From: Psilocybe cubensis
Lineage: Eukaryota
NCBI GenBank assembly: GCA_017499595.2
Contig: CM039000.1
Coordinates: 1 to 64,000 of the forward strand
Length of the DNA stretch: 64,000 nt
Direction: 5' to 3'
Both the position numbers and the translations under genes were made by a program. A model generated the notes under the pieces. The model did no database searches and was not told the origin of the DNA. It was given only the letters and a program-made list of their open reading frames with translations. Positions 1-33,500 of this stretch are shown one piece after another. Each line of letters opens with the position of its first letter. Position 1 is the stretch's first letter.

Positions 1-140
1 TAAACCCTAAACCCTAAACCCTAAACCCTAAACCCTAAACCCTAAACCCTAAACCCTAAACCCTAAACCCTAAACCCTAAACCCTAAACCCTAAACCCTA
101 AACCCTAAACCCTAAACCCTAAACCCTAAACCCTAAACCC
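1..140. repeat. Terminal telomere tract (TAAACCC)n, i.e. TTTAGGG on the minus strand
   Basis: Perfect 7-mer tandem repeat at the window start, C-rich strand on +, which indicates a left chromosome end. Confidence 0.97.
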
Positions 141-742
141 TAAACCTAAACCTAAACCCTAAACCCTAAACCCTAAACCCTAACCTAACCCCAACCCTAA
201 GCTAACTAAGTCTAACCTTAGTAGGAAGTAAGGTAGGCGTGTGAACTTCCGAACGGCATGTGATTGTGAAGGGCCGGATCTAATTTAGTACATGGGAAAA
301 GTTACTTAGTACTTCGGGAAAAGTTCCTTAGTACCGTGGAAACATTTTTGATGGACCGGATCATGAACTGTCCAATTAAGATTCACAACAATCAATCATT
401 CTATTGTTTGATTGTTAGGTAAGGACCCAGGTAAGTTATTTATACTCTAGACATGTGAATATTCCCATGTCGCGGTTACTCGGAGCCACGTAACCAGAGT
501 AATCTATATCCATGTGATTCACATCACAGTCAATAACCCACGATGTCAAAGAACAAAAGTGTTGGATCCACTTTTGACAGGTTACCATGTGCCACATCGA
601 CCCGTGACACTCTGTTCATCAGAGACCTGTCTAACTTGACGATAAACATTGACAGATTTGTGATAGTCGGTAAGATACATGACAGCTGCGCAGCATCACT
701 TCACGCGCTGTCATCGGATGTCTAGAACATTCCTTCTAAGAA

Positions 743-1738
743 TAGCCACTGAAGAGTCTATAAAGACGAAAGGGCTGGTTGTTGGGATCCCCCAACAGCC
801 CTCAAGTACTCGTCCTCTCCCAAACTCCTGCCGCTTGTGCCTTCCCAACTCATCCGGGAGCCCTTTCGTCACTGATCTTGCCCTTGACTCGGGGACGTTT
901 CATCGACATGTTGGCTGCCTCACGGCAAGCGGGGCCCTTTTTCTTTCACTCGCTCACGCCTTCTATGTTGGGTTACGGAGGTCATACAAACTCGTTTTAG
1001 TCTAGCTGCGGGGATATCCAGCTATGATGACTTTGTAATTCGAGGGCGCGCAGTTCTTCAATGGGTATGGACATCAGGTGAGAGTACACTGGGGGTTGTC
1101 AGGACCAGCTCTGCTGGATACGCTCCTGGCAAGTCGGTTGCAGCCGGCGACACTACCGAATTGCTGGGACGTCCTAAAGCTTGTGGGTACCGCCGACCGC
1201 TGGAAACAGCCTAGGCACCGGTGGCGACCGGGTATGGTAACAATCCCCAAGATTCAGCGAAAGCTGGAATGGATAATCAGCAGCGAATCCGTAACGGTCA
1301 CGCCGACGGAAGCGTTCAACGACTAGGTGGTAGTGGGGTCTTCGGATCTTAAGATATAGTCTTGGGAGTGGGGAAACCCACATCTGGTATCTAAACCGCG
1401 CCTCGCTGCTTACGAGGACGGCCCGAAGACCAGAACCGCTTAAAACGCGGGTGACCCGGCCTCCCCTTAGTAAAGGGAGTTAACACAAGGATGGACAAAT
1501 AGTTCGTCGCCGGAAATGAACCTGTGGCTGTAATGGCTGATGTGGCGCCCCTTGGTAAAGGGCTTAAAGGGTATTAGCCTGCCATGTCCAATGGCATGAG
1601 AGTGTCCCTTGGTAAAGGACTTAATAGGCAATAGCCTGCTCTTTTGTCATGAGCGGTATGTAGTGATCGTTTGCCTGTACGGTAGCGCCCATTGCTTGCA
1701 CTGGTCCACGCCCGTAAAAAATCACGAGCCGCTGGCTA
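743..1738 (+). ncRNA. Type I hammerhead ribozyme split by a group I intron (5' part 743-802, 3' part 1732-1738)
   Basis: TAGCCA-CTGAAGA-GTCT(ATAA)AGAC-GAAA-GGGCTG...CAGCCC-T | intron | C-TGGCTA. Joining the two parts gives exactly the sequence at 6089-6155. Confidence 0.88.
803..1731 (+). ncRNA. Group I self-splicing intron, IC1-like, 929 nt, no evident ORF
   Basis: The 5' exon ends in U (802) and the intron ends in G (1731). P1 pairs exon ACAGCCCU with GGGGUUGU (1092-1099), with a U.G pair at the splice site. P3 is CACUACC 1151-1157/GGUAGUG 1329-1335; P4 is UGCUG/CAGCA; P7 is GACUA 1321-1325/UAGUC 1357-1361. Core motifs AAUUGCUGGGA, AAUCAGCAG, GUUCAACGACUA and AAGAUAUAGUC are present, plus a GAAA-capped P5b-like stem, a UUCG-capped P8 and a GAAA-capped P9. 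Confidence 0.9.
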
Positions 1739-1842
1739 CTTTCCATTTAACTCCCAGTTTAAACTAGTCGCTCGCACCTCGCTTCGCTCGGTGCTCGCTC
1801 CCCCCCTAAACCCAACGACTTTGCTATTATCCATCAGCCACT

Positions 1843-4800
1843 ATGTCATCTCAATACTCTGCTGCTTTCTCTCGTGCCATGTCCCCCACCCTGGACGCAC
1901 TCACCCAGGCCGTCGTCAACAACACCGTTTTCGGCGTCAACGATGAAGCAGGCCGCCATAACGCTCTGATCGACGAGCTGGCCACTGTGGTCATCAAAAA
2001 AATAGCTGAGTGCCGCTCCGTTGACCAAGTCATAGACTGCGTCTTTTTTGACTATCGTGCTGCCCTTAGGGAGTTTCTCCTCAACCTCGCATCGTGGTGC
2101 GATAAGAGGGAAACAGTCAAGGCTAGCCTCGAGCGCCTTGAATCTGCCGTTAGCGCAGGCAACACGCCCAATCGCCTTAAGGTGAAGGCACCCGAGTTCC
2201 AACTTACGAAGGAATTCGCGGATGCCGGGTCAGCGGAGGCTCTTCGAGTCTCCACTACGTTCTCTACCGCTCGTGACGCCTTCCAAAAGGCAATTAACGA
2301 CGGCGCCATTCAGGCGAAAAAGGACGAGCTGACTTTTTGGGATGATAAATGCGCACTCAACTCTTGCTACGAAGCTGCTGCCCTCATCGTTAAGGCAACT
2401 TACGATGATCGCAAATCCAGCTACAAGCTCCCTGTTTTCTCTACAGATAACAAGGGAGTTCGACGTATAGCAGAGTGGGTAGTGTCTCCGCAAAAGAAAG
2501 CCGAATGCAGTGCGCTGCAAACCATACTGCCGGCGATCTTTTCTCACATCAAACAAATTGTCAACATGCGCCACCGCGCTTTGGCAATTAAGATTGAGAA
2601 AAAGCGGACGACTGCGGCAACAGCCGATGTCGAGATGGCCGACGCGACCAAACCAGGTCCGTCGATTCAATCCCTTATTGATAAGGGCTTGAATGCACGT
2701 CTCAAGAAGCTCAACCTTGGATCTGTGGGCAAGAAGGCAAGTTTTCGTAACCCTTCACCCATAATTCTGGATACTAATTACTACTCTAATTACCCAGACT
2801 TTGTCTGGCCAGAATTCGTCCAAGGCTCCTCAACCTCAGGCCAAGAAAGCTGGCCCTTCGAAACCCAAGTCGTCGTCGACGCCTTCGCAACGCAAGCCTC
2901 AAACCAAGGCTTCCAACAAGGTCGACAACAAGAAGAAAGGGAAGGGGAGAGCTCCCGTCAAGAACGATCCAAAGGGAAAGGGAAAGGCAAGAGCCTAGAT
3001 GCGCGGTCTAATGTAGTACCTTTTACGTCGGTGAGACCCGCCTTCCCCAACTCTATTCCTGACGATATACTCACCATGACTAAAACAGACGCAGTTTCTT
3101 TCGTACACTTACATACTCCAATATCATTCTTGTTGGCTGGCCAGTATCGTAGTAGTGTACATTGTAGTCCTGGTGTTTCTGTCCCTGTTGATGTAGCAAA
3201 CGATCTCTCTCTCGGACTTAATTATATGTTTTTCACTCTGCCTTCTAAAAGTCTGATCATGCAAGCATGGAATGATTTCCAACGAAGAATAAGATGGCGT
3301 ATCTATTTTTTGTTTAAGGAAGGCATGAATAAACCTTTTGATCCAGATTATGGAGTAAGCTCAAAAAAGAAAGAGAAACCTCCTGTATTACCGCAATATA
3401 TGGAACTTGGCCTTTCGATGGGACGTCGGTACGTGCAACGCACGATCGCAAGTATCCCGGAAGAAGCCCTTACGGAGATGCGAAAGCACGCGTTCTCTCC
3501 TAAAAGGGACAAGATCCGTAAGTTTCTTATCGATAACAACTATGTTATTACGATGACAGATAAGAATCTTGGCCTCGCGGTGTCTGAACGCGACTGGATA
3601 TTAAGGAATGAGCTCAATCTTCTTGAAGATGAACGTAATTACGAAGAGTTAGAATTCGAAGTTGCGCAAGAAGTTATGAAGAGCAAAATGATTCAGATGC
3701 AAACGCTCGCACGTACTGTCGAAGATGAACATCTGTTTCTATTTGAACTTGGGTTGTCTCGATTCTTTCTATCGAATGTACCGGAAGACGGATCATCGTT
3801 CAAGTATCCTCAATTTCATGGTATACCTAAAATCCACAAGAAACCTACTGGATTTAGGCCCATAATTCCGTGTCACTCTGTAGTATTTAATCCTGCAGCC
3901 AAGTTTGTATCAAAAGAGCTTAAGCCGATTATTAAATCGACTCCTTCAATCATACACGGAACGAAGGATCTCTTTACGAGATTAAGCCAATTGCGTATAG
4001 ACTCCAAAAGACAATGGTATTTTGTCACTGGAGATGTAGTTGCTTTCTATCCCAATATTCCGTTGGACTTGTGCATCGAAATCGTTTGTAGTATGTACGA
4101 GGAATGGTTACTCAACGCTTCGGAAGAAAACACTGCATTAGCCCATATTAATCCAAATTCGTTAGAGAATAACTTGGTTAAATTGGGCATCTTTAAACGT
4201 GCTATCGAGATTGGCAATACGCAATTGATAACACAACATGGGTCTAGATATTTTAGACAAAAAAATGGCCTCGCAATGGGCGTCGCGGATTCTCCGGACC
4301 TTGCTAACCTCTTTGGAGCCCATTTTGAAATAAAGTCAAAAATCTTAGACCACCCAAACGTGGCCTTCTATGGAAGGTACATCGACGATTGTTTCGCAAT
4401 TGTTTACGCCGAGTCCGAAGCACTTGCACTTAATCTTATTAAAGAAACAATAAAGTTCGATGGTTGTGTTATCGAATGGGCTGTTTCCTCGTCGGGATGT
4501 CAATTTCTCGATGCTTTCATATTCAAGGAGTCTGGAAAACTTCATTGGAAGCCTTTTGTCAAGACAGGAAACAACCGAGAACGAGTTCCATGGGTATCAC
4601 ATCATCCTTTGGACGTCAAACGTGGCGTCTACATTGGAGAGTTATCCAGGTTAGCCGTGCTATGTAGTACCAAGGAAATCTACATCGGAGCAATTAGAGA
4701 CCTTAACGCTCTCTATTTGATGCGCGGTTATCCCGAAAACCTAGTCATATCTTGGTGTAAGAAGAATATACAAGAACGTTGGGAAAAGCGATTCGCTTTA

Positions 4801-5373
4801 CGAGTCGCAGAGCACGACGAATCCATTCTTGTACTTAAAACCAGATTTGATCAGGTATGGAATTGGTTTTCAGCTGCTGAACTTGGAAAAACTGTTACCG
4901 AGTACTGGTCGGCATGGTATGAACATGCCGAGAAAGGTTTGTATAGTGCAGACTCGTCCAGACCCCTTATCAAACCAGATCCAAATTACGTTCACGACCT
5001 CGATGATGTTCGCCCGGAGCTGTTCACACAGATCCTCGTGGACGGAGAAACTGAGTTCGTACCGGATTTGAGGAAGATAGGACTACTCGGAAGTCGTTGG
5101 ATAGTATCGCGAAAACGCAATACTAATCTTTTCGACCTTGCAAATGTGTGGAAGAAAACAGTCTTTCGTAAACTGGATGAAGACATCGCTGAAAAAGGTG
5201 GTGTTGTTCCCGAAACTCAAAACGTTAATGAAACTTATCATTCTGCTTTAGTTGAAGCTACTGAGCAGATAAGTATCGAAAGTGATAACGAGATAATACT
5301 TCATAGACGTTCAATCTCACAAGAGAGGGAACATCCAGAATTTGGCAGAATATCCAAATCTTACAACCGATGA
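1843..5373 (+). CDS. ORF1-reverse transcriptase polyprotein of a Penelope-like element (1176 aa), no GIY-YIG endonuclease
   Basis: PLE RT motifs: PKIHKKPTGFRPII, TGDVVAFYPNIP, QKNGLAMGVADSPDLANLF, YGRYIDD, FLD, and HHP..KRG...GELSR in the thumb. The N-terminus looks helical. Confidence 0.93.
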   Translation: MSSQYSAAFSRAMSPTLDALTQAVVNNTVFGVNDEAGRHNALIDELATVVIKKIAECRSVDQVIDCVFFDYRAALREFLLNLASWCDKRETVKASLERLESAVSAGNTPNRLKVKAPEFQLTKEFADAGSAEALRVSTTFSTARDAFQKAINDGAIQAKKDELTFWDDKCALNSCYEAAALIVKATYDDRKSSYKLPVFSTDNKGVRRIAEWVVSPQKKAECSALQTILPAIFSHIKQIVNMRHRALAIKIEKKRTTAATADVEMADATKPGPSIQSLIDKGLNARLKKLNLGSVGKKASFRNPSPIILDTNYYSNYPDFVWPEFVQGSSTSGQESWPFETQVVVDAFATQASNQGFQQGRQQEEREGESSRQERSKGKGKGKSLDARSNVVPFTSVRPAFPNSIPDDILTMTKTDAVSFVHLHTPISFLLAGQYRSSVHCSPGVSVPVDVANDLSLGLNYMFFTLPSKSLIMQAWNDFQRRIRWRIYFLFKEGMNKPFDPDYGVSSKKKEKPPVLPQYMELGLSMGRRYVQRTIASIPEEALTEMRKHAFSPKRDKIRKFLIDNNYVITMTDKNLGLAVSERDWILRNELNLLEDERNYEELEFEVAQEVMKSKMIQMQTLARTVEDEHLFLFELGLSRFFLSNVPEDGSSFKYPQFHGIPKIHKKPTGFRPIIPCHSVVFNPAAKFVSKELKPIIKSTPSIIHGTKDLFTRLSQLRIDSKRQWYFVTGDVVAFYPNIPLDLCIEIVCSMYEEWLLNASEENTALAHINPNSLENNLVKLGIFKRAIEIGNTQLITQHGSRYFRQKNGLAMGVADSPDLANLFGAHFEIKSKILDHPNVAFYGRYIDDCFAIVYAESEALALNLIKETIKFDGCVIEWAVSSSGCQFLDAFIFKESGKLHWKPFVKTGNNRERVPWVSHHPLDVKRGVYIGELSRLAVLCSTKEIYIGAIRDLNALYLMRGYPENLVISWCKKNIQERWEKRFALRVAEHDESILVLKTRFDQVWNWFSAAELGKTVTEYWSAWYEHAEKGLYSADSSRPLIKPDPNYVHDLDDVRPELFTQILVDGETEFVPDLRKIGLLGSRWIVSRKRNTNLFDLANVWKKTVFRKLDEDIAEKGGVVPETQNVNETYHSALVEATEQISIESDNEIILHRRSISQEREHPEFGRISKSYNR
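2737..2797 (+). other. Probable 61-nt GC-AG spliceosomal intron inside the ORF (equivalent position in all RT copies)
   Basis: Donor AAG|GCAAGT, CTAAT branch-like motifs, acceptor CCCAG|. Removing it joins codon 298 to the Lys-rich frame 2798-2998. Confidence 0.6.
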
Positions 5374-5422
5374 AAAGAATACTAGCGCTTAAGGCGTAAA
5401 GCATTAGAAAAAAACCCTAACC

Positions 5423-5485
5423 GTAAGTATTCCTTGCTATAAAGTAACAAACATCTACTTACAAGCAACACATTGGATTGAATAG
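5423..5485 (+). other. Possible 63-nt GT-AG spliceosomal intron in the 3' UTR, interrupting a telomere-like tract
   Basis: AACCCTAACC|GTAAGT...AATAG|CTAAACC, present after all 8 ORFs; the branch site is only weak. Confidence 0.4.
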
Positions 5486-6088
5486 CTAAACCTAAACCTA
5501 AACCCTAAACCCTAAACCCTAAACCCTAACCTAACCCCAACCCTAAGCTAACTAAGTCTAACCTTAGTAGGAAGTAAGGTAGGCGTGTGAACTTCCGAAC
5601 GGCATGTGATTGTGAAGGGCCGGATCTAATTTAGTACATGGGAAAAGTTACTTAGTACTTCGGGAAAAGTTCCTTAGTACCGTGGAAACATTTTTGATGG
5701 ACCGGATCATGAACTGTCCAATTAAGATTCACAACAATCAATCATTCTATTGTTTGATTGTTAGGTAAGGACCCAGGTAAGTTATTTATACTCTAGACAT
5801 GTGAATATTCCCATGTCGCGGTTACTCGGAGCCACGTAACCAGAGTAATCTATATCCATGTGATTCACATCACAGTCAATAACCCACGATGTCAAAGAAC
5901 AAAAGTGTTGGATCCACTTTTGACAGGTTACCATGTGCCACATCGACCCGTGACACTCTGTTCATCAGAGACCTGTCTAACTTGACGATAAACATTGACA
6001 GATTTGTGATAGTCGGTAAGATACATGACAGCTGCGCAGCATCACTTCACGCGCTGTCATCGGATGTCTAGAACATTCCTTCTAAGAA

Positions 6089-6155
6089 TAGCCACTGAAG
6101 AGTCTATAAAGACGAAAGGGCTGGTTGTTGGGATCCCCCAACAGCCCTCTGGCTA
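6089..6155 (+). ncRNA. Intact type I hammerhead ribozyme (3' pLTR of copy 1), predicted cleavage after C6149
   Basis: Stem I UAGCCA/UGGCUA, core CUGAAGA, stem II GUCU/AGAC, GAAA, stem III GGGCUG/CAGCCC, cleavage triplet CUC. Confidence 0.92.
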
Positions 6156-6230
6156 CTTTCCATTTAACTCCCAGTTTAAACTAGTCGCTCGCACCTCGCT
6201 TCGCTCGGTGCTCGCTCCCCCCCTAAACCC

Positions 6231-6270
6231 TAACCCTAAACCCTAAACCCTAAACCCTAAACCCTAAACC
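6231..6270. repeat. Interstitial telomeric tract capping a 5'-truncated copy
   Basis: (TAAACCC)n with one TAACCC variant; joins the element through ACCC microhomology. Confidence 0.9.
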
Positions 6271-9200
6271 CAGGCTGTCGTCAACAACACAGTTTTTGGC
6301 GTCAACGACGAAGCTGGCCGCCACAACGCCCTCATCGACGAGTTGGCCACTGTCGTCATCAAGAAAATAGCTGAGTGCCGCTCCATTGACCAGATTGTAG
6401 ACTGCGTCTTTTTTGACTATCGTGCTGCCCTTAGGGAGTTTCTCCTCAACCTCGCATCGTGGTGCGATAAGAGGGAAACAGTCAAGGCTAGCCTCGAGCG
6501 CCTTGAACTTGCCGTTAGCGCAGGCAACACCCCCAATCGCCTTCGGGTGAAGGCTCCCGAGTTCCAACTTACGAAGGAATTCGCGGATGCCGGGTCAGCG
6601 GAAGCTCTTCGAGTTTCCTCTACGTTCTCCACCGCTCGTGATGTCTTCCAAAAGGCAATCAACGACGGCGCCATTCAGGCGAAAAAGGACGAACTGGCCT
6701 TTTGGGATGATAAATGCGCACTCAATAACTGTTATGAAGCTGCTGCCCTCATCGTTAAGACAACTTACGATGATCGCAAATCCAGCTATAAGCTCCCCGT
6801 TTTCTCTACAGACAACAAGGGAGTTCGTCGAATAACAGATTGGGTAGTGTCACCGCAGAAGAAGGCTGAATGCAGCGCATTGCAAACCATTTTGCCAGCC
6901 ATCTTCTCTCATATCAAACAGATTGTCAACTTGCGCCACCGCGCTTTGGCAATCAAGATTGAGAAAAAGCGGTCGACTGCGGCAACAGCCGATGTCGAGA
7001 TGGCCGATGCGACCAAACCAGGTCCATCGATTCAATCCCTTATTGATAAGGGCTTGAATGCACGTCTCAAGAAGCTCAACCTTGGATCTGTGGGCAAGAA
7101 GGCAAGTTCTCGTAACCCTTCACCCATAATTCTGGATACTAATTACTATTCTAATTACCCAGACTTTGTCTGGCCAGAATTCGTCCAAGGCTCCTCAACC
7201 TCAGGCCAAGAAAGCTGGCCCTTCGAAATTCAAACCCTCGTCGACGCCTTCGCAGAAGAAGCCCCAAACCAAGGCTTCCAACAAGGTCGACAACAAGAAG
7301 AAAGGGAAGGGGAGAGCTCCCGTCAAGAACGATCCAAAGGGAAAGGGAAAGGCAAGAGCCTAGACGCGCGGTCTAATGTAGTACCTTTTACGTCGGTAAG
7401 ACCCGCCTTCCCCAACTCTATTCCTGACGATATACTCACCATGACTAAAACAGACGCAGTTTCTTTTGTACACTTACATACGCCGATCTCATTCTTGTTG
7501 GCTGGCCAGTATCGTAGTAGTGTACACTGTAGTCCTGGTGTGGTGGTCCCTGTAGATATAGCAAATGATTTGTCACTCGGACTCAATTATATGTTTTTTA
7601 CTCTACCTTCTCAAAGTCTGATCATGCAAGCATGGAATGATTTTCAACGAAGAATAAGATGGCGTATCTATTTTTTGTTTAAGGAAGGCATGAACAAACC
7701 TTTTGATCCAGATTACGGAGTAAGCTCAAAAAAGAAAGAGAAACCTCCAGTATTACCGCAATACATGGAACTTGGCCTTTCGATGGGACGTCGGTACGTG
7801 CAACGCACGATCGCAAGTATCCCGGAAGAAGCCCTTACGGAGATGCGAAAGCACGCGTTCTCTCCTAAAAGGGACAAGATCCGTAAGTTTCTTATCGATA
7901 ACAACTATGTTATTACGATGACAGATAAGAATCTTGGCCTCGCGGTGTCTGAACGCGACTGGATATTAAGGAATGAGCTCAATCTTCTTGAAGATGAACG
8001 TAACTATGAAGAGTTAGAATTCGAAGTTGCGCAAGAAGTAATGAAGAGCAAAATGATCCAGATGCAAACTCTTGCACGTACCGTCGAAGATGAACATCTG
8101 TTTCTATTTGAACTTGGATTGTCTCGATTCTTTCTATCGAATGTACCGGAAGACGGATCATCGTTCAAGTATCCTCAATTTCATGGTATACCTAAAATCC
8201 ACAAAAAACCTACTGGATTTAGGCCCATAATTCCGTGTCACTCTGTAGTATTTAATCCTGCAGCCAAGTTTGTATCAAAAGAGCTTAAGCCGATTATTAA
8301 ATCGACTCCTTCAATCATTCACGGAACGAAGGATCTCTTTACGAGATTAAGCCAATTGCGTATAGACCCCAAACGACAATGGTATTTTGTCACCGGGGAT
8401 GTAGTTGCTTTCTATCCCAATATTCCGTTGGACTTGTGCATCGAAATCGTTTGTAATATGTACGAGGAATGGTTACTCAACGCTTCGGAAGAAAACACTG
8501 CATTAGCCCATATTAATCCAAATTCGTTAGAGAATAACTTGGTTAAATTGGGCATCTTTAAACGTGCTATCGAGATTGGCAATACGCAATTGATAACACA
8601 ACATGGGTCTAGATATTTTAGACAAAAAAATGGCCTCGCAATGGGCGTCGCGGATTCTCCGGACCTTGCTAACCTCTTTGGAGCCCATTTTGAAATAAAG
8701 TCAAAAATCTTAGACCACCCAAACGTGGCCTTCTATGGAAGGTACATCGACGATTGTTTCGCAATTGTTTACGCCGAGTCCGAAGCACTTGCACTTAATC
8801 TTATTAAAGAAACAATAAAGTTCGATGGTTGTGTTATCGAATGGGCTGTTTCCTCGTCGGGATGTCAATTTCTCGATGCTTTCATATTCAAGGAGTCTGG
8901 AAAACTTCATTGGAAGCCATTTGTCAAGACAGGAAACAACCGAGAACGAGTTCCATGGGTATCACATCATCCTTTGGACGTCAAACGTGGCGTCTACATT
9001 GGAGAGTTATCCAGGTTAGCCGTGCTATGTAGTACCAAGGAAATCTACATCGGAGCAATTAGAGACCTTAACGCTCTCTATTTGATGCGCGGTTATCCCG
9101 AAAACCTAGTCATGTCTTGGTGTAAGAAGAATATACAAGAACGTTGGGAAAAGCGATTCGCTTTACGAGTCGCAGAGCACGACGAATCCATTCTTGTACT

Positions 9201-10446: not shown

Positions 10447-10517
10447 TAGCCACTGAAGAGTCTATAAAGACGAAAGGGCTGGCTGCTGATAACAATCAAC
10501 AGCCCTCTGGCCTTCTT
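10447..10517 (+). ncRNA. Intact hammerhead ribozyme (subfamily B variant)
   Basis: Same core; stem III loop GCTGCTGATAACAATCAA; stem I GCCA/UGGC extended by AAGAA/UUCUU. Confidence 0.85.
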
Positions 10518-10589
10518 TCCATTTAACTCACAGTTTAAACAAGTCGCTCGCACCTCGCTTCGCTCGGTGCTCGCTCCCCCCCTAAACCC

Positions 10590-15796: not shown

Positions 15797-16415
15797 CCTA
15801 ACCCCAACCCTAAGCTAACTAAGTCTAACCTTAGTAGGAAGTAAGGTAGGCGTGTGAACTTCCGAACGGCATGTGATTGTGAAGGGCCGGATCTAATTTA
15901 GTACATGGGAAAAGTTACTTAGTACTTCGGGAAAAGTTCCTTAGTACCGTGGAAACATTTTTGATGGACCGGATCATGAACTGTCCAATTAAGATTCACA
16001 ACAATCAATCATTCTATTGTTTGATTGTTAGGTAAGGACCCAGGTAAGTTATTTATACTCTAGACATGTGAATATTCCCATGTCGCGGTTACTCGGAGCC
16101 ACGTAACCAGAGTAATCTATATCCATGTGATTCACATCACAGTCAATAACCCACGATGTCAAAGAACAAAAGTGTTGGATCCACTTTTGACAGGTTACCA
16201 TGTGCCACATCGACCCGTGACACTCTGTTCATCAGAGACCTGTCTAACTTGACAATAAACATTGACAGATTTGTGATAGTCGGTAAGATACATGACAGCT
16301 GCGCAGCATCACTTCACGCGCTGTCATCGGATGTCTAGAACATTCCTTCTAAGAATAGCCACTGAAGAGTCTATAAAGACGAAAGGGCTGGTTGTTGGGA
16401 TCCCCCAACAGCCCT

Positions 16416-17344
16416 CAAGTACTCGTCCTCTCCCAAACTCCTGCCGCTTGTGCCTTCCCAACTCATCCGGGAGCCCTTTCGTCACTGATCTTGCCCTTGA
16501 CTCGGGGACGTTTCATCGACATGTTGGCTGCCTCACGGCAAGCGGGGCCCTTTTTCTTTCACTCGCTCACGCCTTCTATGTTGGGTTACGGAGGTCATAC
16601 AAACTCGTTTTAGTCTAGCTGCGGGGATATCCAGCTATGATGACTTTGTAATTCGAGGGCGCGCAGTTCTTCAATGGGTATGGACATCAGGTGAGAGTAC
16701 ACTGGGGGTTGTCAGGACCAGCTCTGCTGGATACGCTCCTGGCAAGTCGGTTGCAGCCGGCGACACTACCGAATTGCTGGGACGTCCTAAAGCTTGTGGG
16801 TACCGCCGACCGCTGGAAACAGCCTAGGCACCGGTGGCGACCGGGTATGGTAACAATCCCCAAGATTCAGCGAAAGCTGGAATGGATAATCAGCAGCGAA
16901 TCCGTAACGGTCACGCCGACGGAAGCGTTCAACGACTAGGTGGTAGTGGGGTCTTCGGATCTTAAGATATAGTCTTGGGAGTGGGGAAACCCACATCTGG
17001 TATCTAAACCGCGCCTCGCTGCTTACGAGGACGGCCCGAAGTCCAGAACCGCTTAAAACGCGGGTGACCCGGCCTCCCCTTAGTAAAGGGAGTTAACACA
17101 AGGATGGACAAATAGTTCGTCGCCGGAAATGAACCTGTGGCTGTAATGGCTGATGTGGCGCCCCTTGGTAAAGGGCTTAAAGGGTATTAGCCTGCCATGT
17201 CCAATGGCATGAGAGTGTCCCTTGGTAAAGGACTTAATAGGCAATAGCCTGCTCTTTTGTCATGAGCGGTATGTAGTGATCGTTTGCCTGTACGGTAGCG
17301 CCCATTGCTTGCACTGGTCCACGCCCGTAAAAAATCACGAGCCG
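16416..17344 (+). ncRNA. Group I intron, second complete copy, at the same hammerhead position
   Basis: CAGCCCT|CAAGTACTC...GAGCCG|CTGGCTA; near-identical to 803-1731. Confidence 0.9.
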
Positions 17345-17455
17345 CTGGCTACTTTCCATTTAACTCCCAGTTTAAACTAGTCGCTCGCACCTCGCTTCGC
17401 TCGGTGCTCGCTCCCCCCCTAAACCCAACGACTTTGCTATTATCCATCAGCCACT

Positions 17456-25825: not shown

Positions 25826-28800
25826 CCGGAAATGAACCTGTGGCTGTAATGGCTGATGTGGCGCCCCTTGGTAAAGGGCTTAAAGGGTATTAGCCTGCCA
25901 TGTCCAATGGCATGAGAGTGTCCCTTGGTAAAGGACTTAATAGGCAATAGCCTGCTCTTTTGTCATGAGCGGTATGTAGTGATCGTTTGCCTGTACGGTA
26001 GCGCCCATTGCTTGCACTGGTCCACGCCCGTAAAAAATCACGAGCCGCTGGCTTCTTTCCATTTTAACTCCCAGTTTAAACTAGTCGCTCGCACCTCGCT
26101 TCGCTCGGTGCTCGCTCCCCCCCTAAACCCAACGACTTTGCTATCACCCATCAGCCACTATGTCATCCCAATATTCTGCTGCTTTCTCTCGTGCCATGTC
26201 CCCCACCCTGGACGCACTCACCCAGGCCGTCGTCAACAACACCGTCTTCGGCGTCAACGATGAAGCAGGCCGCCAAAACGCTCTCATCGACGAGCTGGCC
26301 ACTGTGGTCATCAAGAAAATAGCTGAGTGCCGCTCCGTTGATCAAATAATAGACTGCGTCTTTTTTGACTATCGCGCTGCCCTTAGGGAGTTTCTCCTCA
26401 ACCTCGCATCGTGGTGCGACAAGAGGGAAACAGTCAGGGCTAGCCTTGAGCGCCTTGAACTTGCCGTTAGCGCAGGCAGCACCCCCAATCGCCTTAAGGT
26501 GAAGGCTCCCGAGTTCCAACTCACGAAGGAATTCGCGGATGCCGGGTCAGCGGAGGCTCTTCGAGTCTCTACTACGTTCTCCACCGCTCGTGACGTCTTC
26601 CAAAAGGCGATTAACGACGGCGCCATTCAGGCGAAAAAGGACGAACTGGCCTTTTGGGAGGATAAATGCGCACTCGCTTCTTGCTATGAAGCTGCTGCGG
26701 TCATCGTTAAGACAACTTACGAAGACCGCAAGTCCAGCTATAAGCTCCCCGTTTTCTCTACAGACAACAAGGGAGTTCGTCGCATAGCAGAGTGGGTAAC
26801 GTCGCCGCAAAAGAAAGCCGAGTGCAGTGCGCTGCAAACTATACTGCCGGCTATCTTTTCTCATATCAAACAAATTGTCAAATTGCGCCACCGCGCTTTG
26901 GCAATTAAGATTGAGAAAAAGCGGTCGACCGCGGCTACAGCCGATGTCGAGATGGCCGACGCGACCAAACCAGGTCCGTCGATTCAATCCCTTATTGATA
27001 AGGGCTTGAATGCACGTCTTAAGAAGCTCAACCTTGGATATGTGGGCAAGAAGGCAGGTTTTCGTAACCCTTCACCCATAACTTTGGATACTAATTATTA
27101 TTCTAATTACCCAGACTTCGTCTGGCCAGAGTTCGTCCAAGGCTCCTCAACCTCAGGCCAAGAAAACTGGCCCTTCGAAACCCAAGTCGTCGTCGACGCC
27201 TTCGCAACGCAAGCCTCAAACCAAGGCTTCCAACAAGGTCGACAACAAGAAGAAAGGGAAGGGGAGAGCTCCCGTCAAGAACAACGATCCAAAGGGAAAG
27301 GGAAAGGCAAGAGCCTAAACGCGCGGTCTAATGTAGTACCTTTTACGTCGGTAAGACCCGCTTTCCCCAACTCTATTCCTGACGATATACTCACCATGAC
27401 TAAAACAGACGCAGTTTCATTTGTACACCTCAATACCCCAATTTCTTTCTTATTGGCTGGCCAGTATAGATCTAGTGTACATTGTAGTCCTGGTGTTGTA
27501 GTTCCGGTTGATGTAGCAAACGACTTATCTCTCGGTTTAAATTATATGTTTTTCACACTGCCTTCTCAAAGTCTGATCATGCAAGCATGGAATGATTTTC
27601 AACGAAGAATAAGATGGCGTATCTATTTTTTGTTTAAAGAAGGCATGAATAAACCTTTTGATCCAGATTATGGAGTAAGTTCTAAGAAAAAAGAAAAACC
27701 TCCTGTATTACCGCAATTTATGGAACTTGGCCTTTCAATGGGACGTCGGTACGTTATTAAAACGATCGCAAGTATCCCGGAAGAAGCCCTCAAGGAGATG
27801 CGAAAGCACGCGTTCTCTCCTAAAAGGGACAAGATCCAAAAGTTTCTTATCGATAACAACTATGTTATTACGATGACAGATAAGAATCTTGGCCTCGCGG
27901 TGTCTGAACGCGACTGGATATTAAGGAATGAGCTCAATCTTCTTGAAGATGAACGTAATTACGAAGAGCTAGAATTCGAAGTTGCGCAAGAAGTAATGAA
28001 GAGCAAAATGATCCAGATGCAAACTCTTGCACGTACCGTCGAAGATGAACATCTGTTTCTATTTGAACTTGGGTTGTCTCGATTCTTTCTATCGAATGTA
28101 CCGGAAGACGGATCATCGTTCAAGTATCCTCAATTTCATGGTATACCTAAAATCCACAAAAAACCTACTGGATTTAGGCCCATAATTCCGTGTCACTCTG
28201 TAGTATTTAATCCTGCAGCCAAGTTTGTATCAAAAGAGCTTAAGCCGATTATTAAATCGACTCCTTCAATCATTCACGGAACGAAGGATCTCTTTACGAG
28301 ATTAAGCCAATTGCGTATAGACCCCAAACGACAATGGTATTTTGTCACCGGGGATGTAGTTGCTTTCTATCCCAATATTCCGTTGGACTTGTGCATCGAA
28401 ATCGTTTGTAATATGTACGAGGAATGGTTACTCAACGCTTCGGAAGAAAACACTGCATTAGCCCATATTAATCCAAATTCGTTAGAGAATAACTTGGTTA
28501 AATTGGGCATCTTTAAACGTGCTATCGAGATTGGCAATACGCAATTGATAACACAACATGGGTCTAGATATTTTAGACAAAAAAATGGCCTCGCAATGGG
28601 CGTCGCGGATTCTCCGGACCTTGCTAACCTCTTTGGAGCCCATTTTGAAATAAAGTCAAAAATCTTAGACCACCCAAACGTGGCCTTCTATGGAAGGTAC
28701 ATCGACGATTGTTTCGCAATTGTTTACGCCGAGTCCGAAGCACTTGCACTTAATCTTATTAAAGAAACAATAAAGTTCGATGGTTGTGTTATCGAATGGG

Positions 28801-30563: not shown

Positions 30564-33500
30564 CCCTTGGTAAAGGGCTTAAAGGGTATTAGCCTGCCAT
30601 GTCCAATGGCATGAGAGTGTCCCTTGGTAAAGGACTTAATAGGCAATAGCCTGCTCTTTTGTCATGAGCGGTATGTAGTGATCGTTTGCCTGTACGGTAG
30701 CGCCCATTGCTTGCACTGGTCCACGCCCGTAAAAAATCACGAGCCGCTGGCTTCTTTCCATTTTAACTCCCAGTTTAAACTAGTCGCTCGCACCTCGCTT
30801 CGCTCGGTGCTCGCTCCCCCCCTAAACCCAACGACTTTGCTATCACCCATCAGCCACTATGTCATCCCAATATTCTGCTGCTTTCTCTCGTGCCATGTCC
30901 CCCACCCTGGACGCACTCACCCAGGCCGTCGTCAACAACACCGTCTTCGGCGTCAACGATGAAGCAGGCCGCCAAAACGCTCTCATCGACGAGCTGGCCA
31001 CTGTGGTCATCAAGAAAATAGCTGAGTGCCGCTCCGTTGATCAAATAATAGACTGCGTCTTTTTTGACTATCGCGCTGCCCTTAGGGAGTTTCTCCTCAA
31101 CCTCGCATCGTGGTGCGACAAGAGGGAAACAGTCAGGGCTAGCCTTGAGCGCCTTGAACTTGCCGTTAGCGCAGGCAGCACCCCCAATCGCCTTAAGGTG
31201 AAGGCTCCCGAGTTCCAACTCACGAAGGAATTCGCGGATGCCGGGTCAGCGGAGGCTCTTCGAGTCTCTACTACGTTCTCCACCGCTCGTGACGTCTTCC
31301 AAAAGGCGATTAACGACGGCGCCATTCAGGCGAAAAAGGACGAACTGGCCTTTTGGGAGGATAAATGCGCACTCGCTTCTTGCTATGAAGCTGCTGCGGT
31401 CATCGTTAAGACAACTTACGAAGACCGCAAGTCCAGCTATAAGCTCCCCGTTTTCTCTACAGACAACAAGGGAGTTCGTCGCATAGCAGAGTGGGTAACG
31501 TCGCCGCAAAAGAAAGCCGAGTGCAGTGCGCTGCAAACTATACTGCCGGCTATCTTTTCTCATATCAAACAAATTGTCAAATTGCGCCACCGCGCTTTGG
31601 CAATTAAGATTGAGAAAAAGCGGTCGACCGCGGCTACAGCCGATGTCGAGATGGCCGACGCGACCAAACCAGGTCCGTCGATTCAATCCCTTATTGATAA
31701 GGGCTTGAATGCACGTCTTAAGAAGCTCAACCTTGGATATGTGGGCAAGAAGGCAGGTTTTCGTAACCCTTCACCCATAACTTTGGATACTAATTATTAT
31801 TCTAATTACCCAGACTTCGTCTGGCCAGAGTTCGTCCAAGGCTCCTCAACCTCAGGCCAAGAAAACTGGCCCTTCGAAACCCAAGTCGTCGTCGACGCCT
31901 TCGCAACGCAAGCCTCAAACCAAGGCTTCCAACAAGGTCGACAACAAGAAGAAAGGGAAGGGGAGAGCTCCCGTCAAGAACAACGATCCAAAGGGAAAGG
32001 GAAAGGCAAGAGCCTAAACGCGCGGTCTAATGTAGTACCTTTTACGTCGGTAAGACCCGCTTTCCCCAACTCTATTCCTGACGATATACTCACCATGACT
32101 AAAACAGACGCAGTTTCATTTGTACACCTCAATACCCCAATTTCTTTCTTATTGGCTGGCCAGTATAGATCTAGTGTACATTGTAGTCCTGGTGTTGTAG
32201 TTCCGGTTGATGTAGCAAACGACTTATCTCTCGGTTTAAATTATATGTTTTTCACACTGCCTTCTCAAAGTCTGATCATGCAAGCATGGAATGATTTTCA
32301 ACGAAGAATAAGATGGCGTATCTATTTTTTGTTTAAAGAAGGCATGAATAAACCTTTTGATCCAGATTATGGAGTAAGTTCTAAGAAAAAAGAAAAACCT
32401 CCTGTATTACCGCAATTTATGGAACTTGGCCTTTCAATGGGACGTCGGTACGTTATTAAAACGATCGCAAGTATCCCGGAAGAAGCCCTCAAGGAGATGC
32501 GAAAGCACGCGTTCTCTCCTAAAAGGGACAAGATCCAAAAGTTTCTTATCGATAACAACTATGTTATTACGATGACAGATAAGAATCTTGGCCTCGCGGT
32601 GTCTGAACGCGACTGGATATTAAGGAATGAGCTCAATCTTCTTGAAGATGAACGTAATTACGAAGAGCTAGAATTCGAAGTTGCGCAAGAAGTAATGAAG
32701 AGCAAAATGATCCAGATGCAAACTCTTGCACGTACCGTCGAAGATGAACATCTGTTTCTATTTGAACTTGGGTTGTCTCGATTCTTTCTATCGAATGTAC
32801 CGGAAGACGGATCATCGTTCAAGTATCCTCAATTTCATGGTATACCTAAAATCCACAAAAAACCTACTGGATTTAGGCCCATAATTCCGTGTCACTCTGT
32901 AGTATTTAATCCTGCAGCCAAGTTTGTATCAAAAGAGCTTAAGCCGATTATTAAATCGACTCCTTCAATCATTCACGGAACGAAGGATCTCTTTACGAGA
33001 TTAAGCCAATTGCGTATAGACCCCAAACGACAATGGTATTTTGTCACCGGGGATGTAGTTGCTTTCTATCCCAATATTCCGTTGGACTTGTGCATCGAAA
33101 TCGTTTGTAATATGTACGAGGAATGGTTACTCAACGCTTCGGAAGAAAACACTGCATTAGCCCATATTAATCCAAATTCGTTAGAGAATAACTTGGTTAA
33201 ATTGGGCATCTTTAAACGTGCTATCGAGATTGGCAATACGCAATTGATAACACAACATGGGTCTAGATATTTTAGACAAAAAAATGGCCTCGCAATGGGC
33301 GTCGCGGATTCTCCGGACCTTGCTAACCTCTTTGGAGCCCATTTTGAAATAAAGTCAAAAATCTTAGACCACCCAAACGTGGCCTTCTATGGAAGGTACA
33401 TCGACGATTGTTTCGCAATTGTTTACGCCGAGTCCGAAGCACTTGCACTTAATCTTATTAAAGAAACAATAAAGTTCGATGGTTGTGTTATCGAATGGGC

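What the first reader, a model, noticed from the sequence alone, without database searches (positions are those of the whole stretch)
743..1738. A ribozyme inside a ribozyme: group I intron inserted in the cleavage triplet of a retroelement hammerhead
Seen in the sequence: the 929-nt insert (803-1731, again 16416-17344) has a complete group I core (P1 with a U.G splice-site pair, P3, P4, P7, P8, P9, terminal G). It sits between the U and C of the hammerhead CUC triplet, and precise removal regenerates the intact hammerhead found at 6089-6155. Established: PLE pLTRs often carry type I hammerheads, and group I introns splice after a U.G pair and at a terminal G. Inference: self-cleavage of the 5' pLTR is impossible until the intron splices, giving a splicing-gated two-ribozyme cascade that controls processing of the retroelement RNA. 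I know of no described example.
Basis: partly seen in the sequence, partly recalled or inferred. Interest (0 to 1): 0.97.

Follow-up and report, generated by a model that had tools for sequence, protein, structure and literature searches.

The report
Self-splicing intron inside a retrotransposon's hammerhead
A group I self-splicing intron sits in the catalytic centre of a hammerhead ribozyme in a telomeric retrotransposon of a Psilocybe mushroom and is copied along with it, a place where such introns have not been reported.

Summary
A 929-nt insert (803-1731, again 16416-17344) matches Rfam group I intron RF00028 above threshold. It follows U16.1 of a type I hammerhead. Removing it gives exactly the intact hammerhead seen at 13 other sites in the window. 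The hammerhead misses Rfam thresholds, but its core is complete and its helices covary across 20 related sequences.

The host is a telomeric, endonuclease-less Penelope-like retroelement of Psilocybe, with 11 head-to-tail copies at a chromosome end.

New here:
- The 5' exon forms an 8-bp P1 with the guide sequence, and those same bases form hammerhead helix III.
- Two copies are 5'-truncated inside the intron, so unspliced RNA is reverse-transcribed.
- DNA reads of another strain hold an exact head-to-tail intron-intron joint.
- A related intron with compensatory helix changes lies beside the hammerhead of a distant Penelope-like family.

Best reading: a structurally intact passenger intron that entered by reverse splicing and spreads with its host. 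Splicing would rebuild the hammerhead.

That this "gates" or controls processing is unsupported. The intron is sporadic, the intronless sister clade has full-length copies, and every informative DNA copy of the carrying clades derives from unspliced RNA. No RNA data tested splicing. Literature searches found no precedent.

The parts
5..183 (.). Chromosome-end telomeric repeats (CCCTAAA)n. The element array starts directly behind them.
743..802 (+). 5' part of the type I hammerhead in the 5' pLTR of copy E1. Helix I 5' strand 743-748, core CUGAAGA 749-755, helix II 756-767, GAA 768-770, A15.1 at 771, helix III 772-801, U16.1 at 802.
   Evidence: sequence; identical to the uninterrupted hammerhead at 6089-6148
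803..1731 (+). Group I intron, 929 nt. Starts with C803 and ends with the terminal G1731.
   Evidence: boundaries from 13 empty sites; RF00028 core inside it
795..811 (+). P1 5' strand. Exon ACAGCCCU (795-802, also the 3' strand of hammerhead helix III) plus intron GUACUC (806-811).
   Evidence: duplex calculation
812..1081 (+). About 270-nt insertion in the P1 loop. No ORF with a Pfam match.
1082..1099 (+). P1 3' strand. GAGUAC (1082-1087) pairs with 806-811. Guide sequence GGGGUUGU (1092-1099) pairs with 795-802, with the U802.G1092 wobble.
1087..1383 (+). Catalytic core. P2/P2.1; P3 1151-1158/1328-1335; P4 1162-1167/1277-1282; extended P5 domain with GAAA loops; P6; P7 1321-1325/1357-1361; P8 1336-1340/1345-1349; P9 1368-1372/1377-1381 with a GAAA loop.
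   Evidence: RF00028 alignment; helix coordinates and the ruler
1384..1731 (+). 3' peripheral extension. Holds three copies of a two-hairpin module (cores at 1464-1477, 1549-1562, 1606-1619).
1732..1738 (+). 3' part of the hammerhead: C17 (1732) and the helix I 3' strand UGGCUA (1733-1738). Predicted cleavage after C1732 once the intron is spliced out.
1843..5373 (+). ORF of 1176 aa, the reverse transcriptase of an endonuclease-less Penelope-like element. 98-99% identical to Psilocybe cubensis proteins.
6089..6155 (+). Uninterrupted hammerhead in the 3' pLTR of the same copy (the empty site). Predicted cleavage between 6149 and 6150.
16356..17351 (+). Second full copy (E4) of the interrupted hammerhead. 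Intron at 16416-17344.
25826..26047 (+). Copy E6. The element is 5'-truncated inside the intron (equivalent of about 1510) and joined to telomeric repeats. The unspliced 3' splice junction is retained.
30564..30746 (+). Copy E7. 5'-truncated inside the intron (equivalent of 1549) at a CCCT microhomology with the telomeric repeat. The unspliced 3' splice junction is retained.

Best explanation
A structurally intact group I intron (IC1-like) lives as a passenger in a telomeric, endonuclease-less Penelope-like retroelement (Coprina/Athena type) of Psilocybe.

ORIGIN (inferred). It most likely entered by reverse splicing into the element's RNA. Its guide sequence GGGGUUGU is complementary to ACAGCCCU, which is the 3' strand of hammerhead helix III ending in U16.1. 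The element's own reverse transcriptase then fixed the insertion in DNA.

SPREAD (shown by the DNA copies). The intron has no homing endonuclease gene. It spreads by being carried in unspliced element RNA that is reverse-transcribed onto chromosome ends.

RNA LEVEL (inferred). P1 and hammerhead helix III exclude each other. While the intron is present, helix I is not next to C17, so the 5' hammerhead should be disabled. Splicing would rebuild a perfect hammerhead.

I read this coupling as a consequence of where the intron landed, and as the reason it is tolerated, rather than as an evolved control device.
For: INTRON STRUCTURE
- RF00028 match above threshold in two copies.
- 8-bp P1 with the U.G wobble, the best partner in the whole intron.
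- Terminal G and exact boundaries against 13 empty sites.
- No ORF or Pfam match in the intron: 0 families for 5 frames.

UNSPLICED RNA IS THE TEMPLATE
- The full-length copies E1 and E4 keep the intron. E1 is the most distal copy.
- E6 and E7 are 5'-truncated inside the intron and capped by telomeric repeats.
- That makes 4 of 4 informative copies of clades E1/E4 and E5-E7 unspliced.

RIBOZYME CHEMISTRY AT THESE EXACT ENDS
- 9 raw DNA reads of X22, with 7 distinct starts, join 1731 back to 803.
- This is the joint expected from a reverse-transcribed full-length intron circle, or from reverse splicing into an already occupied site.

SELECTION ON STRUCTURE
- L029 carries a related intron (RF00028, 57 bits).
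- In the Rfam-guided comparison it shows both-sided pair changes in P3 (3), P5 (2), P6 (2) and P9 (2).
- Within Psilocybe, 1347 U>C turns a G.U pair in P8 into G-C.

DISTRIBUTION AND SOURCE
- The intron is sporadic, as expected of a selfish insert.
- X22 depth over the intron is even (78-120) and well below the flanks. I take this to mean there is no high-copy near-identical intron, such as one in rDNA, at 85% likeness or more. No single-copy baseline was measured.
Against: - No RNA evidence of splicing. The only RNA-library contig laid (X17) is an intronless pLTR variant and is not diagnostic.
- No spliced copy of the intron-bearing clades is seen in the window. This also fits a dead intron.
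- No convincing P10. The best partner of the 3' exon near the guide sequence gives only -4.9 kcal/mol.
- Reverse splicing as the origin is inferred from guide complementarity alone.
- The covariation count rests on two lineages and partly on helices I assigned by hand. The P8 register is arbitrary. One P4 mismatch came from my mis-specified strand.
- The tree of copies cannot tell a gain from a loss.
Confidence: 0.6

Rival explanations
1. The nesting is an evolved two-ribozyme switch: splicing of the intron licenses hammerhead self-cleavage and so controls processing of the retroelement RNA. For example, unspliced and uncleavable RNA could be the template, and spliced and cleaved RNA another form.
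For: - P1 and helix III use the same bases, and excision restores the hammerhead exactly.
- The intron lies only in 5' pLTRs. All 11 3' or solo pLTR hammerheads in the window lack it.
- In the second family the 3' pLTR of L028 also lacks it, while 3 of 3 5' regions carry it.
- Related introns sit at or beside the hammerhead in two distant Penelope-like families.
Against: - Most relatives lack the intron. In the metagenome loci, 10 of the 11 hammerheads that lie 5' of the ORF on their contig are uninterrupted.
- Intron depth is about 7% of pLTR depth and about a quarter of ORF-start depth in X22.
- The intronless copies E3 and E11 are full length and keep the whole 5' pLTR. Their template RNA was therefore not cleaved at an intact 5' hammerhead anyway.
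- In L029 a 6-bp helix I survives upstream of the insertion.
- There is no expression or cleavage data.
Confidence: 0.15
2. Dead relic. The intron entered once, no longer splices, and merely disables a dispensable 5' hammerhead. The element propagates regardless.
For: - Every informative DNA copy of the carrying clades retains the intron.
- No spliced derivative and no RNA evidence were found.
- P10 is absent.
- There are large insertions in the P1 loop and after P9.
Against: - The core scores above the Rfam threshold in two lineages that differ by many compensatory pair changes.
- Variants seen in reads keep or improve pairing or consensus: 1347 U>C in P8, and 1168 and 1326 G>A in joining regions.
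- The exact 1731-to-803 joint in DNA implies recent chemistry at the true intron ends.
- Where clades E1/E4 and E5-E7 can be compared, the intron 3' part is 98.3-98.5% identical (1510-1900 and 1549-1900, which include about 170 nt of downstream exon). The ORF is 96.3% identical.
Confidence: 0.2
3. Artefact or non-intron insertion: an assembly chimera, a captured rDNA or mitochondrial fragment, or a DNA-level homing event.
For: None found. I considered it because nuclear group I introns are reported only from rDNA (abstracts of PMC3679873 and PMC8395846).
Against: - Raw reads and contigs from several runs and labelled organisms carry the same junctions.
- Four copies in the window have different neighbours.
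- The boundaries obey the rules of U before the intron and G at its end.
- No rRNA match at E up to 10 in 700-1850.
- Core G+C is 0.57.
- No endonuclease ORF.
Confidence: 0.03

Closest known systems
Nuclear rDNA group I introns of subgroup IC1 (the Tetrahymena LSU intron type)
   Same: Same catalytic core: P3-P9, P7 with the J8/7 AAGAUAUAGUC motif, GAAA loops in the P5 extension and L9, P2/P2.1. Also a U.G wobble at the 5' splice site, a terminal G and no ORF. The subgroup call rests on recalled criteria, not on a subgroup model.
   Different: The host is a telomeric retrotransposon RNA, not rRNA. Reviews state that all known nuclear group I introns interrupt rDNA (PMC3679873 abstract and passages; PMC8395846 abstract). 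It has a roughly 270-nt insertion in the P1 loop and no clear P10. It is inherited by retrotransposition of its host.
Hammerheads of Penelope-like elements, fungal and protist type (Cervera and de la Pena 2014, PMC4209133)
   Same: Type I hammerhead in the pLTR, with a large helix III, short helices I and II and no obvious loop-loop contacts, as the passages I read describe for fungal elements. The same motif occurs in 17 related metagenome loci.
   Different: In 2 of 15 copies in this window the hammerhead is split between U16.1 and C17 by a 929-nt group I intron. This is not mentioned in the passages I read.
Twin-ribozyme introns (lariat-capping ribozyme inside a group I intron, Didymium and Naegleria)
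   Same: Two ribozymes are nested in one transcript, and the action of one bears on the other (PMC3679873 passages).
   Different: The nesting is inverted: the large splicing ribozyme lies inside the small cleaving one. The host is a retroelement, not rDNA. There is no endonuclease gene. The small ribozyme belongs to the host, not to the intron.
Intron retention in Penelope-like elements (spliceosomal introns kept in genomic copies)
   Same: Retroelement copies that keep an intron, which shows that unspliced RNA is reverse-transcribed (mentioned in PMC4209133).
   Different: Here the intron is a self-splicing group I intron in the untranslated pLTR, not a spliceosomal intron in the ORF.
Reverse-splicing model of group I intron spread (Bhattacharya et al. 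2005, PMC1299323; Hedberg and Johansen 2013)
   Same: The target matches the guide sequence over 8 nt and no endonuclease is involved. This is the pattern the model predicts.
   Different: In rDNA the reverse-transcription and integration steps have never been shown (PMC3679873 passage). Here the invaded RNA is itself a retrotransposition template, so those steps come for free.

Membership tests
Group I intron (Rfam RF00028) | Covariance-model score at or above the curated gathering score | tested here: met
   70.9 bits against 50, full model 1-253, two copies. L029 scores 57.0 bits.
Group I intron | P1 between the 5' exon and an internal guide sequence, with a U.G wobble at the splice site | tested here: met
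   795-802 pairs with 1092-1099, 8 bp, with U802.G1092. At -11.5 kcal/mol it is the best site in the intron.
Group I intron | Terminal G at the 3' splice site | tested here: met
   G1731 is the last inserted base under the only boundary reading that also puts U before the intron.
Group I intron | P3/P7 catalytic domain with the G-binding P7 | tested here: met
   P3 has 8 bp. P7 is GACUA/UAGUC and is conserved in the window, L029 and L026.
Group I intron | P10 pairing of the 3' exon with the guide region | tested here: not met
   The best duplex of 1732-1739 with 1070-1100 is -4.9 kcal/mol. The 3' exon pairs better (-8.4) with the hammerhead helix I strand in the 5' exon. P10 is optional in the family (PMC3679873 passage).
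Group I intron | Guanosine-dependent self-splicing | not testable with these tools
   No diagnostic RNA data. Needs an in vitro assay.
Hammerhead ribozyme, type I | Conserved core: C3 U4 G5 A6 N7 G8 A9, G12 A13 A14, A15.1-U16.1, and position 17 not G | tested here: met
   All present at 6089-6155, and at 743-802 plus 1732-1738. In 20 distinct relatives position 17 is U 10, C 9, A 1.
Hammerhead ribozyme, type I | Three helices around the core, supported by covariation; helix I open | tested here: met
   288 of 300 pair cells are paired, with 1 to 5 pair types per position (the two invariant pairs are G10.1-C11.1 and A15.1-U16.1). With partners shuffled the mean is 0.71 and the maximum 0.81 in 1000 shuffles. 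Caveat: my scan chose the sequences by requiring at least 4, 2 and 4 pairs in helices I, II and III.
Hammerhead ribozyme (Rfam models) | Score at or above a family's gathering score | tested here: not met
   Best scores are RF03152 at 29.1 bits against 56.3 and RF00008 at 19.5 against 48.5. I therefore file it as a hammerhead on core and covariation, not on an Rfam call.
Hammerhead ribozyme | Self-cleavage after position 17 | not testable with these tools
   No pile-up of read starts or ends was reported (table 6). DNA reads and contigs cannot show this.
Endonuclease-less Penelope-like element (Coprina/Athena type) | Telomerase-like reverse transcriptase ORF without a GIY-YIG endonuclease | tested here: inconclusive
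   Reverse-transcriptase-like motifs are invariant in 13 relatives: D573-K-N-L-G, D731, Y846-I-D-D. Near-identical proteins carry precomputed PF00078, and one source names one of them 'Reverse transcriptase domain-containing protein'. The nearest Atlas clusters are RVT_1/DUF8422/HTH_animal, commonest in Rotifera. My own Pfam scans gave 0 families, so also no endonuclease. No clade phylogeny was made.
Endonuclease-less Penelope-like element | Head-to-tail copies at a chromosome end, each followed by short telomeric repeats, with 5' truncations | tested here: met
   11 copies between the terminal (CCCTAAA)n and about 41.8 kb.
Endonuclease-less Penelope-like element | pLTRs that carry hammerhead motifs | tested here: met
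   15 pLTR hammerheads in the window, all on the + strand.

The most novel reading that the evidence does not exclude
A lineage of group I introns has left rDNA and colonised telomeric Penelope-like retrotransposons. It integrates by reverse splicing at or beside their hammerheads and uses the host element's reverse transcriptase and telomere-primed insertion. These are the long-missing 'reverse transcription and integration' steps of RNA-level intron mobility. The P1/helix III alternative would then act as a real RNA switch between an uncleavable, intron-bearing template form and a spliced, self-cleaving form. The exact head-to-tail intron joint in genomic DNA would be a footprint of this pathway still operating.
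Probability: 0.3. Interest if true: 0.92.

Novelty: new variant of a known kind. Interest (0 to 1): 0.82.

Why it matters
- Reviews state that every known nuclear group I intron interrupts rDNA (PMC3679873 and PMC8395846 abstracts). This intron is in a retrotransposon at a chromosome end.
- For rDNA, the full reverse-splicing route of intron spread (reverse splicing, then reverse transcription, then integration) is said to lack experimental proof (PMC3679873 passage). Here the invaded RNA is itself a retrotransposition template, and the DNA copies record that the unspliced RNA was copied. A culturable fungus therefore offers a natural system to test that route.
- It is a natural case of a large ribozyme nested in the catalytic centre of a small one, with mutually exclusive pairings. 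That is a useful model for RNA folding competition.
- It bears on the unknown role of hammerheads in Penelope-like elements. Elements whose 5' hammerhead is split still retrotranspose, while no 3' hammerhead is ever split.

Tried and rejected
TOOLS THAT GAVE NOTHING
- No whole genome is held for this window.
- Pfam found nothing in the 1176-aa ORF even at E up to 10, nor in 5 frames across the intron.
- The PDB sequence search gave 0 hits.
- Rfam hammerhead models stayed below threshold. A scan of 700-1850 at E up to 10 found no rRNA or other relevant family.

RNA EVIDENCE
- Among 24 listed runs only one holder is labelled RNA (X17, share 0.07).
- Its single 178-nt contig is an intronless pLTR variant, so it neither shows nor excludes splicing.
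- The two runs listed as 'RNA? I laid 4 of the 24 runs.

COVARIATION METHOD
- The MAFFT alignment of the two intron cores (A2) was too poor in P5, P6 and P8 for the count of structure pairs.
- A covariance model of the roughly 330-nt core was not attempted, because the tool's stated calibration limits exclude that size.
- I used the two Rfam alignments and a script instead. In that script the printed coordinates of the 3' strands of P5 and P6a are wrong, and one P4 mismatch came from my own strand definition.

L029 5' SPLICE SITE
- The only empty site available suggests a splice site at 451/452.
- I rejected it because the exon end has no guide partner anywhere in the insert (best -3.6 kcal/mol).
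- A P1 homologous to the window's places the site at 583/584. This leaves 132 nt (452-583) unexplained.

OTHER IDEAS REJECTED
- A model in which hammerhead-cut RNA is circularised and copied by rolling circle would make both pLTRs alike. The stable state of intron-plus 5' pLTR and intron-minus 3' pLTR in E1 and E4 contradicts it.
- Insertion of a free intron by ligation at the hammerhead cut was considered because of the 1-nt ambiguity. An excised intron carries an added 5' G, which is not seen.
- The tree of the 8 long copies gives three clades around one node and cannot tell gain from loss.

Supplementary files of the papers were not consulted.
Full report
SETTING. The window begins at a chromosome end. 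(CCCTAAA)n runs from 5 to 183. Behind it lie 11 head-to-tail copies of one retroelement, reaching to about 41.8 kb, and each copy ends in a short run of the same repeat.

I label the copies E1 to E11.

| Copy | Window coordinates | State |
|---|---|---|
| E1 | 184-6268 | full length, intron present |
| E2 | 6268-10631 | 5'-truncated at the equivalent of 1903 |
| E3 | 10580-15813 | full length, no intron |
| E4 | 15791-21886 | full length, intron present, 99.8% identical to E1 |
| E5 | 21888-25827 | 5'-truncated at the equivalent of 2317 |
| E6 | 25826-30567 | 5'-truncated at the equivalent of 1510, inside the intron |
| E7 | 30564-35277 | 5'-truncated at the equivalent of 1549, inside the intron |
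| E8-E10 | 35236-36627 | solo or partial pLTRs |
| E11 | 36582-41773 | full length, no intron |

Each full copy has a direct repeat (pLTR) of about 750 bp on both sides of one ORF (1843-5373, 1176 aa). The ORF is 98-99% identical to Psilocybe cubensis proteins, one of which a source names 'Reverse transcriptase domain-containing protein'. It has 291 relatives at E up to 0.001 among 7998 scored candidates. Reverse-transcriptase-like motifs are invariant in an alignment of 13 relatives (the motif names are recalled). The nearest ESM Atlas clusters carry RVT_1, DUF8422 and HTH_animal and are commonest in Rotifera (a lead only). My own Pfam scans found no family at all.

From the terminal position, the telomeric repeats between copies, the 5' truncations, the pLTRs with hammerheads and the lack of any endonuclease match, I take it to be an endonuclease-less Penelope-like element of the Coprina/Athena kind. 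These are described in PMC8557442 and PMC4209133 (passages read).

THE OBSERVATION. At gathering thresholds Rfam finds two things in 64 kb, both RF00028 group I intron, at 1087-1383 and 16700-16996 (70.9 bits, threshold 50). BLAST of 600-1900 shows that 600-803 recurs at 13 other places in the window. At each, it is followed at once by the equivalent of 1729-1816.

A C on each side leaves one base of ambiguity. Only the reading U802 | C803...G1731 | C1732 gives a 5' exon ending in U and an intron ending in G.

THE HAMMERHEAD. Rfam's hammerhead models do not reach threshold at the empty site 6089-6155 (best 29.1 bits against 56.3). The full consensus is there, however:
- helix I, UAGCCA with UGGCUA;
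- CUGAAGA;
- helix II, GUCU with AGAC;
- GAAA;
- a long helix III;
- U16.1 and C17.

Its minimum-energy fold is the three-way junction (-27.2 kcal/mol, z -3.56; 0 of 200 shuffles as good).

A scan of my own found this architecture at 13 places in the window, all on the + strand, and 19 times in 17 of the 33 related metagenome loci. The scan required the core plus at least 4, 2 and 4 pairs in helices I, II and III.

Results for 20 distinct sequences:
- 288 of 300 pair positions are paired.
- There are 1 to 5 pair types per position. The two invariant pairs are G10.1-C11.1 and A15.1-U16.1.
- With the 3' partners dealt among sequences, the paired fraction falls from 0.96 to a mean of 0.71 (maximum 0.81 in 1000 shuffles).
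- Position 17 is U, C or A, never G.

The scan's own pairing requirement inflates the paired fraction, but not the diversity of pair types. The shape (large helix III, short helices I and II) is the one Cervera and de la Pena describe for fungal Penelope-like elements (PMC4209133, passages). I accept it as a genuine type I hammerhead.

ANATOMY OF THE INTRON.
- The Rfam alignment places P3, P4, P5, P6, P8 and P9 and the conserved J8/7-P7 segment.
- P7 (1321-1325 with 1357-1361), the P3 pairs and the P9 GAAA loop are confirmed.
- The extended P5 domain with GAAA loops, P2 and P2.1 look like subgroup IC1. That label rests on recalled criteria, not on a subgroup model.
- The guide sequence GGGGUUGU (1092-1099) lies just before P2. 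It pairs over 8 bp with exon ACAGCCCU (795-802), with the U802.G1092 wobble at the splice site. This is the most stable partner of that exon segment anywhere in the intron (-11.5 kcal/mol).
- Intron bases 806-811 pair with 1082-1087 and extend P1. About 270 nt (812-1081) therefore form an insertion in the P1 loop, a place where homing endonuclease genes occur in other nuclear introns (PMC3679873 passage).
- No such gene is left. No frame across the intron has a Pfam match.
- No convincing P10 exists. The 3' exon pairs better with the hammerhead helix I strand in the 5' exon (-8.4 against -4.9 kcal/mol), which might hold the exons together. That is an inference.
- The 3' extension (1384-1731) holds three copies of a small two-hairpin module. 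Its core motif occurs 10 times in the window, always inside intron copies, against 0.09 expected.

HOW THE TWO RIBOZYMES INTERLOCK (INFERRED FROM STRUCTURE).
- The exon strand of P1 (795-802) is also the 3' strand of helix III plus U16.1, so the two pairings exclude each other.
- With the intron in place, the bases after U16.1 cannot pair with the helix I strand, and the 5' half folds into an alternative structure.
- Excision at 802/1732 gives the sequence of the intact hammerhead.
- I cannot exclude residual cleavage in the precursor if helix I forms across the folded intron.

WHAT THE COPIES SAY.
- The 8 long copies fall into three clades about 3-4% apart: E1/E4, E2/E3/E11 and E5/E6/E7.
- The intron is in E1, E4, E6 and E7, which is every copy of the first and third clades that reaches the site.
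- It is absent from E3 and E11 of the second clade. With three clades around one node, a gain cannot be told from a loss.
- E6 and E7 begin inside the intron, directly behind telomeric repeats, and run through an unspliced 3' splice junction into the ORF.
- E1 is the most distal copy, and so presumably the youngest. It also carries the intron.
- Unspliced RNA is therefore a regular template for reverse transcription, and the intron does not stop the element from spreading.
- All 11 3' or solo pLTR hammerheads are uninterrupted. E1 and E4 both have an intron-plus 5' pLTR and an intron-minus 3' pLTR, so that asymmetry is passed on through the RNA.
- The intronless full-length copies E3 and E11 keep the whole 5' pLTR. 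An intact 5' hammerhead therefore does not prevent copying of the upstream part either.

EVIDENCE FROM PUBLIC RUNS. I laid 4 of the 24 listed runs on 600-2100.

Raw DNA reads (X22, same species label as the best holders), depths summed over both orientations:

| Region | Depth |
|---|---|
| 600-803 (pLTR) | about 1170-1470 |
| Intron | 78-120 |
| 1875-2078 (ORF start) | 336-397 |

- The intron is thus in roughly 7% of pLTRs and about a quarter of ORF 5' ends.
- The intron depth is even and well below its flanks. I read this as showing no high-copy near-identical intron, such as one in rDNA, at 85% likeness or more. No single-copy baseline was measured.
- The empty-site joint 802-to-1732 is seen in 100 reads.
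- Nine reads, with 7 distinct starts and up to 74 letters on the shorter side, join 1731 back to 803. This is an exact head-to-tail intron-intron joint.
- I know two routes to such DNA. One is reverse transcription of a full-length intron circle, a reaction reported as general for nuclear group I introns (PMC3679873 passage). The other is reverse splicing of a free intron into the CCCU|C site of a precursor that is already occupied.
- Both routes need ribozyme chemistry at exactly these ends.
- About 100 empty-site reads come from many copies, so nine reads fit about one such locus per genome. That is a rough inference.
- Contigs of two other labelled organisms hold the intron with few differences. 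X9 has pieces 886-1296, 1308-1458 and 1478-1682. X10 has several pieces, including 1214-1771 across the 3' splice site.
- The variants seen include 1347 U>C, which turns a P8 G.U pair into G-C, and 1168 and 1326 G>A in joining regions.
- The one RNA-library contig (X17, 178 nt) is an intronless pLTR variant read through the hammerhead. It says nothing about splicing and could even be DNA.
- No run tested splicing.

A SECOND FAMILY.
- A scan of metagenome contigs with an alignment of 13 relatives returned 33 loci.
- Rfam at gathering thresholds finds a group I intron in 1 of the 33. It is L029 863-1205 (57 bits), upstream of an ORF that is only 28% identical to the window's.
- L026 and L028 belong to the same family and are 5'-truncated inside that intron, at the equivalents of L029 1033 and 1265. 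This is the same pattern as E6 and E7.
- The 3' pLTR of L028 provides an empty site. L028 5222-5291 matches L029 382-451 and is followed at once by the match to L029 1591-1687.
- The insertion in L029 is therefore 452-1590. It begins after a U and ends in G.
- It lies 6 nt downstream of the predicted cleavage site of a hammerhead (helix I AAAACUUG with CAAGUUUU), inside the 3' strand of helix I. Six base pairs of helix I remain upstream of it.
- The exon end at 451 has no guide partner (best -3.6 kcal/mol).
- A P1 built like the window's, with GGGG at 860-863 just before P2, pairs with UCCU at 580-583 and has two extension helices. This puts the 5' splice site at 583/584 and leaves 132 nt (452-583) that I cannot explain.
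- The two introns share the peripheral module (88-94% identical over 36-44 nt).
- Aligned to the same Rfam model, they differ by both-sided pair changes in P3 (3), P5 (2), P6 (2) and P9 (2). One terminal P3 pair is lost in L029.
- One search's totals over 38 pairs are 21 unchanged, 3 one-sided, 12 both-sided and 2 unpaired. Three of the both-sided changes are in P8, whose register I set by hand. One 'unpaired' cell is my own error in P4.
- In the 33 loci, 10 of the 11 hammerheads that lie 5' of the ORF on their contig are uninterrupted.

INTERPRETATION.
- The intron is real, structurally intact and apparently kept so by selection.
- It has no means of DNA homing and has been inherited through several retrotranspositions.
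- Its guide matches 8 nt of the hammerhead, which is what reverse splicing into the element's RNA would need.
- The element's own reverse transcriptase and telomere-primed insertion would then make the event heritable.
- The switch is chemically plausible. It is not needed to explain the data, and the sporadic distribution and the L029 arrangement speak against it.
- That related introns lie at or beside the 5' hammerhead in two distant families, and never in a 3' pLTR, is striking and unexplained.
- It could reflect where insertions are tolerated (a dispensable 5' hammerhead against a needed 3' one), a preference of the integration step, or function.

NOVELTY.
- Full-text searches found no report of a group I intron in a Penelope-like element, in a hammerhead or outside rDNA in a nucleus. 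They combined 'group I intron' with Penelope-like, hammerhead, Coprina, Athena, Terminon, pLTR, retrotransposon, reverse splicing, non-rDNA, Psilocybe, subtelomeric, telomere and basidiomycete terms.
- I checked the candidate papers by passages: PMC8557442, PMC4209133, PMC5537684 and PMC7761336. Their mentions of group I introns concern the GIY-YIG endonuclease or RNA circles.
- The library lacks most subscription journals, and supplements were closed, so absence from print is not proven.

Noticed in passing
run X22 laid on window:600-2100 (joint 1731 to 803): Nine raw DNA reads, with 7 distinct starts, join the last base of the intron to its first base. This is a tandem intron or a reverse-transcribed full-length circle. 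It is not present in the window itself.
   Followed up: partly
window 1464-1477, 1549-1562, 1606-1619 (and the same in the other intron copies); L029 731-768, 1073-1110, 1521-1560: A small two-hairpin module (CCCUURGUAAAGGR hairpin, a short linker, a second hairpin, and a closing stem that varies) is repeated in different peripheral positions of both intron lineages. It occurs nowhere else in the window. Its function is unknown.
   Followed up: partly
L029 452-583: 132 nt lie between the hammerhead and the best-supported 5' splice site. They are absent from the one empty site (the L028 3' pLTR) and resemble nothing else that I fetched.
   Followed up: partly
L028 1005-1053 and 5397-5445: A direct repeat of about 48 bp flanks a 5'-truncated element. 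It looks like a long target-site duplication at a non-telomeric insertion of an element without an endonuclease.
   Followed up: no
window 157-183 and 5503-5529; 1806-1815 and 6224-6233: The pLTR itself contains telomere-like stretches: four CCCTAAA units at its start and CCCTAAACCC near its end. These are possible annealing sites for the G-rich overhang that primes reverse transcription.
   Followed up: no
window 5-183 and between all copies: The telomeric repeat here is the 7-nt CCCTAAA/TTTAGGG type. From memory I would have expected TTAGGG in an agaric fungus.
   Followed up: no
window 30550-30577: Copy E7 joins the telomeric repeat to the intron at a shared CCCT. This suggests microhomology at the healing or truncation point.
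   Followed up: no
run X17 (RNA library), contig of 178 nt on 682-803 and 1746-1787: An intronless pLTR variant is present in a metatranscriptome assembly as a contig that runs through the hammerhead cleavage site uncut. DNA carry-over cannot be excluded.
   Followed up: no
window 1843-5373: My Pfam scans return 0 families even at E up to 10. Precomputed annotations of 98-99% identical proteins list PF00078, PF28514 and PF26215.
   Followed up: partly
window 51294-52190 (- strand): An ORF fragment matches NPHP3_N (PF24883, E 7.5e-06). It is probably part of an NLR-like NTPase gene in the subtelomere proximal to the element array.
   Followed up: no
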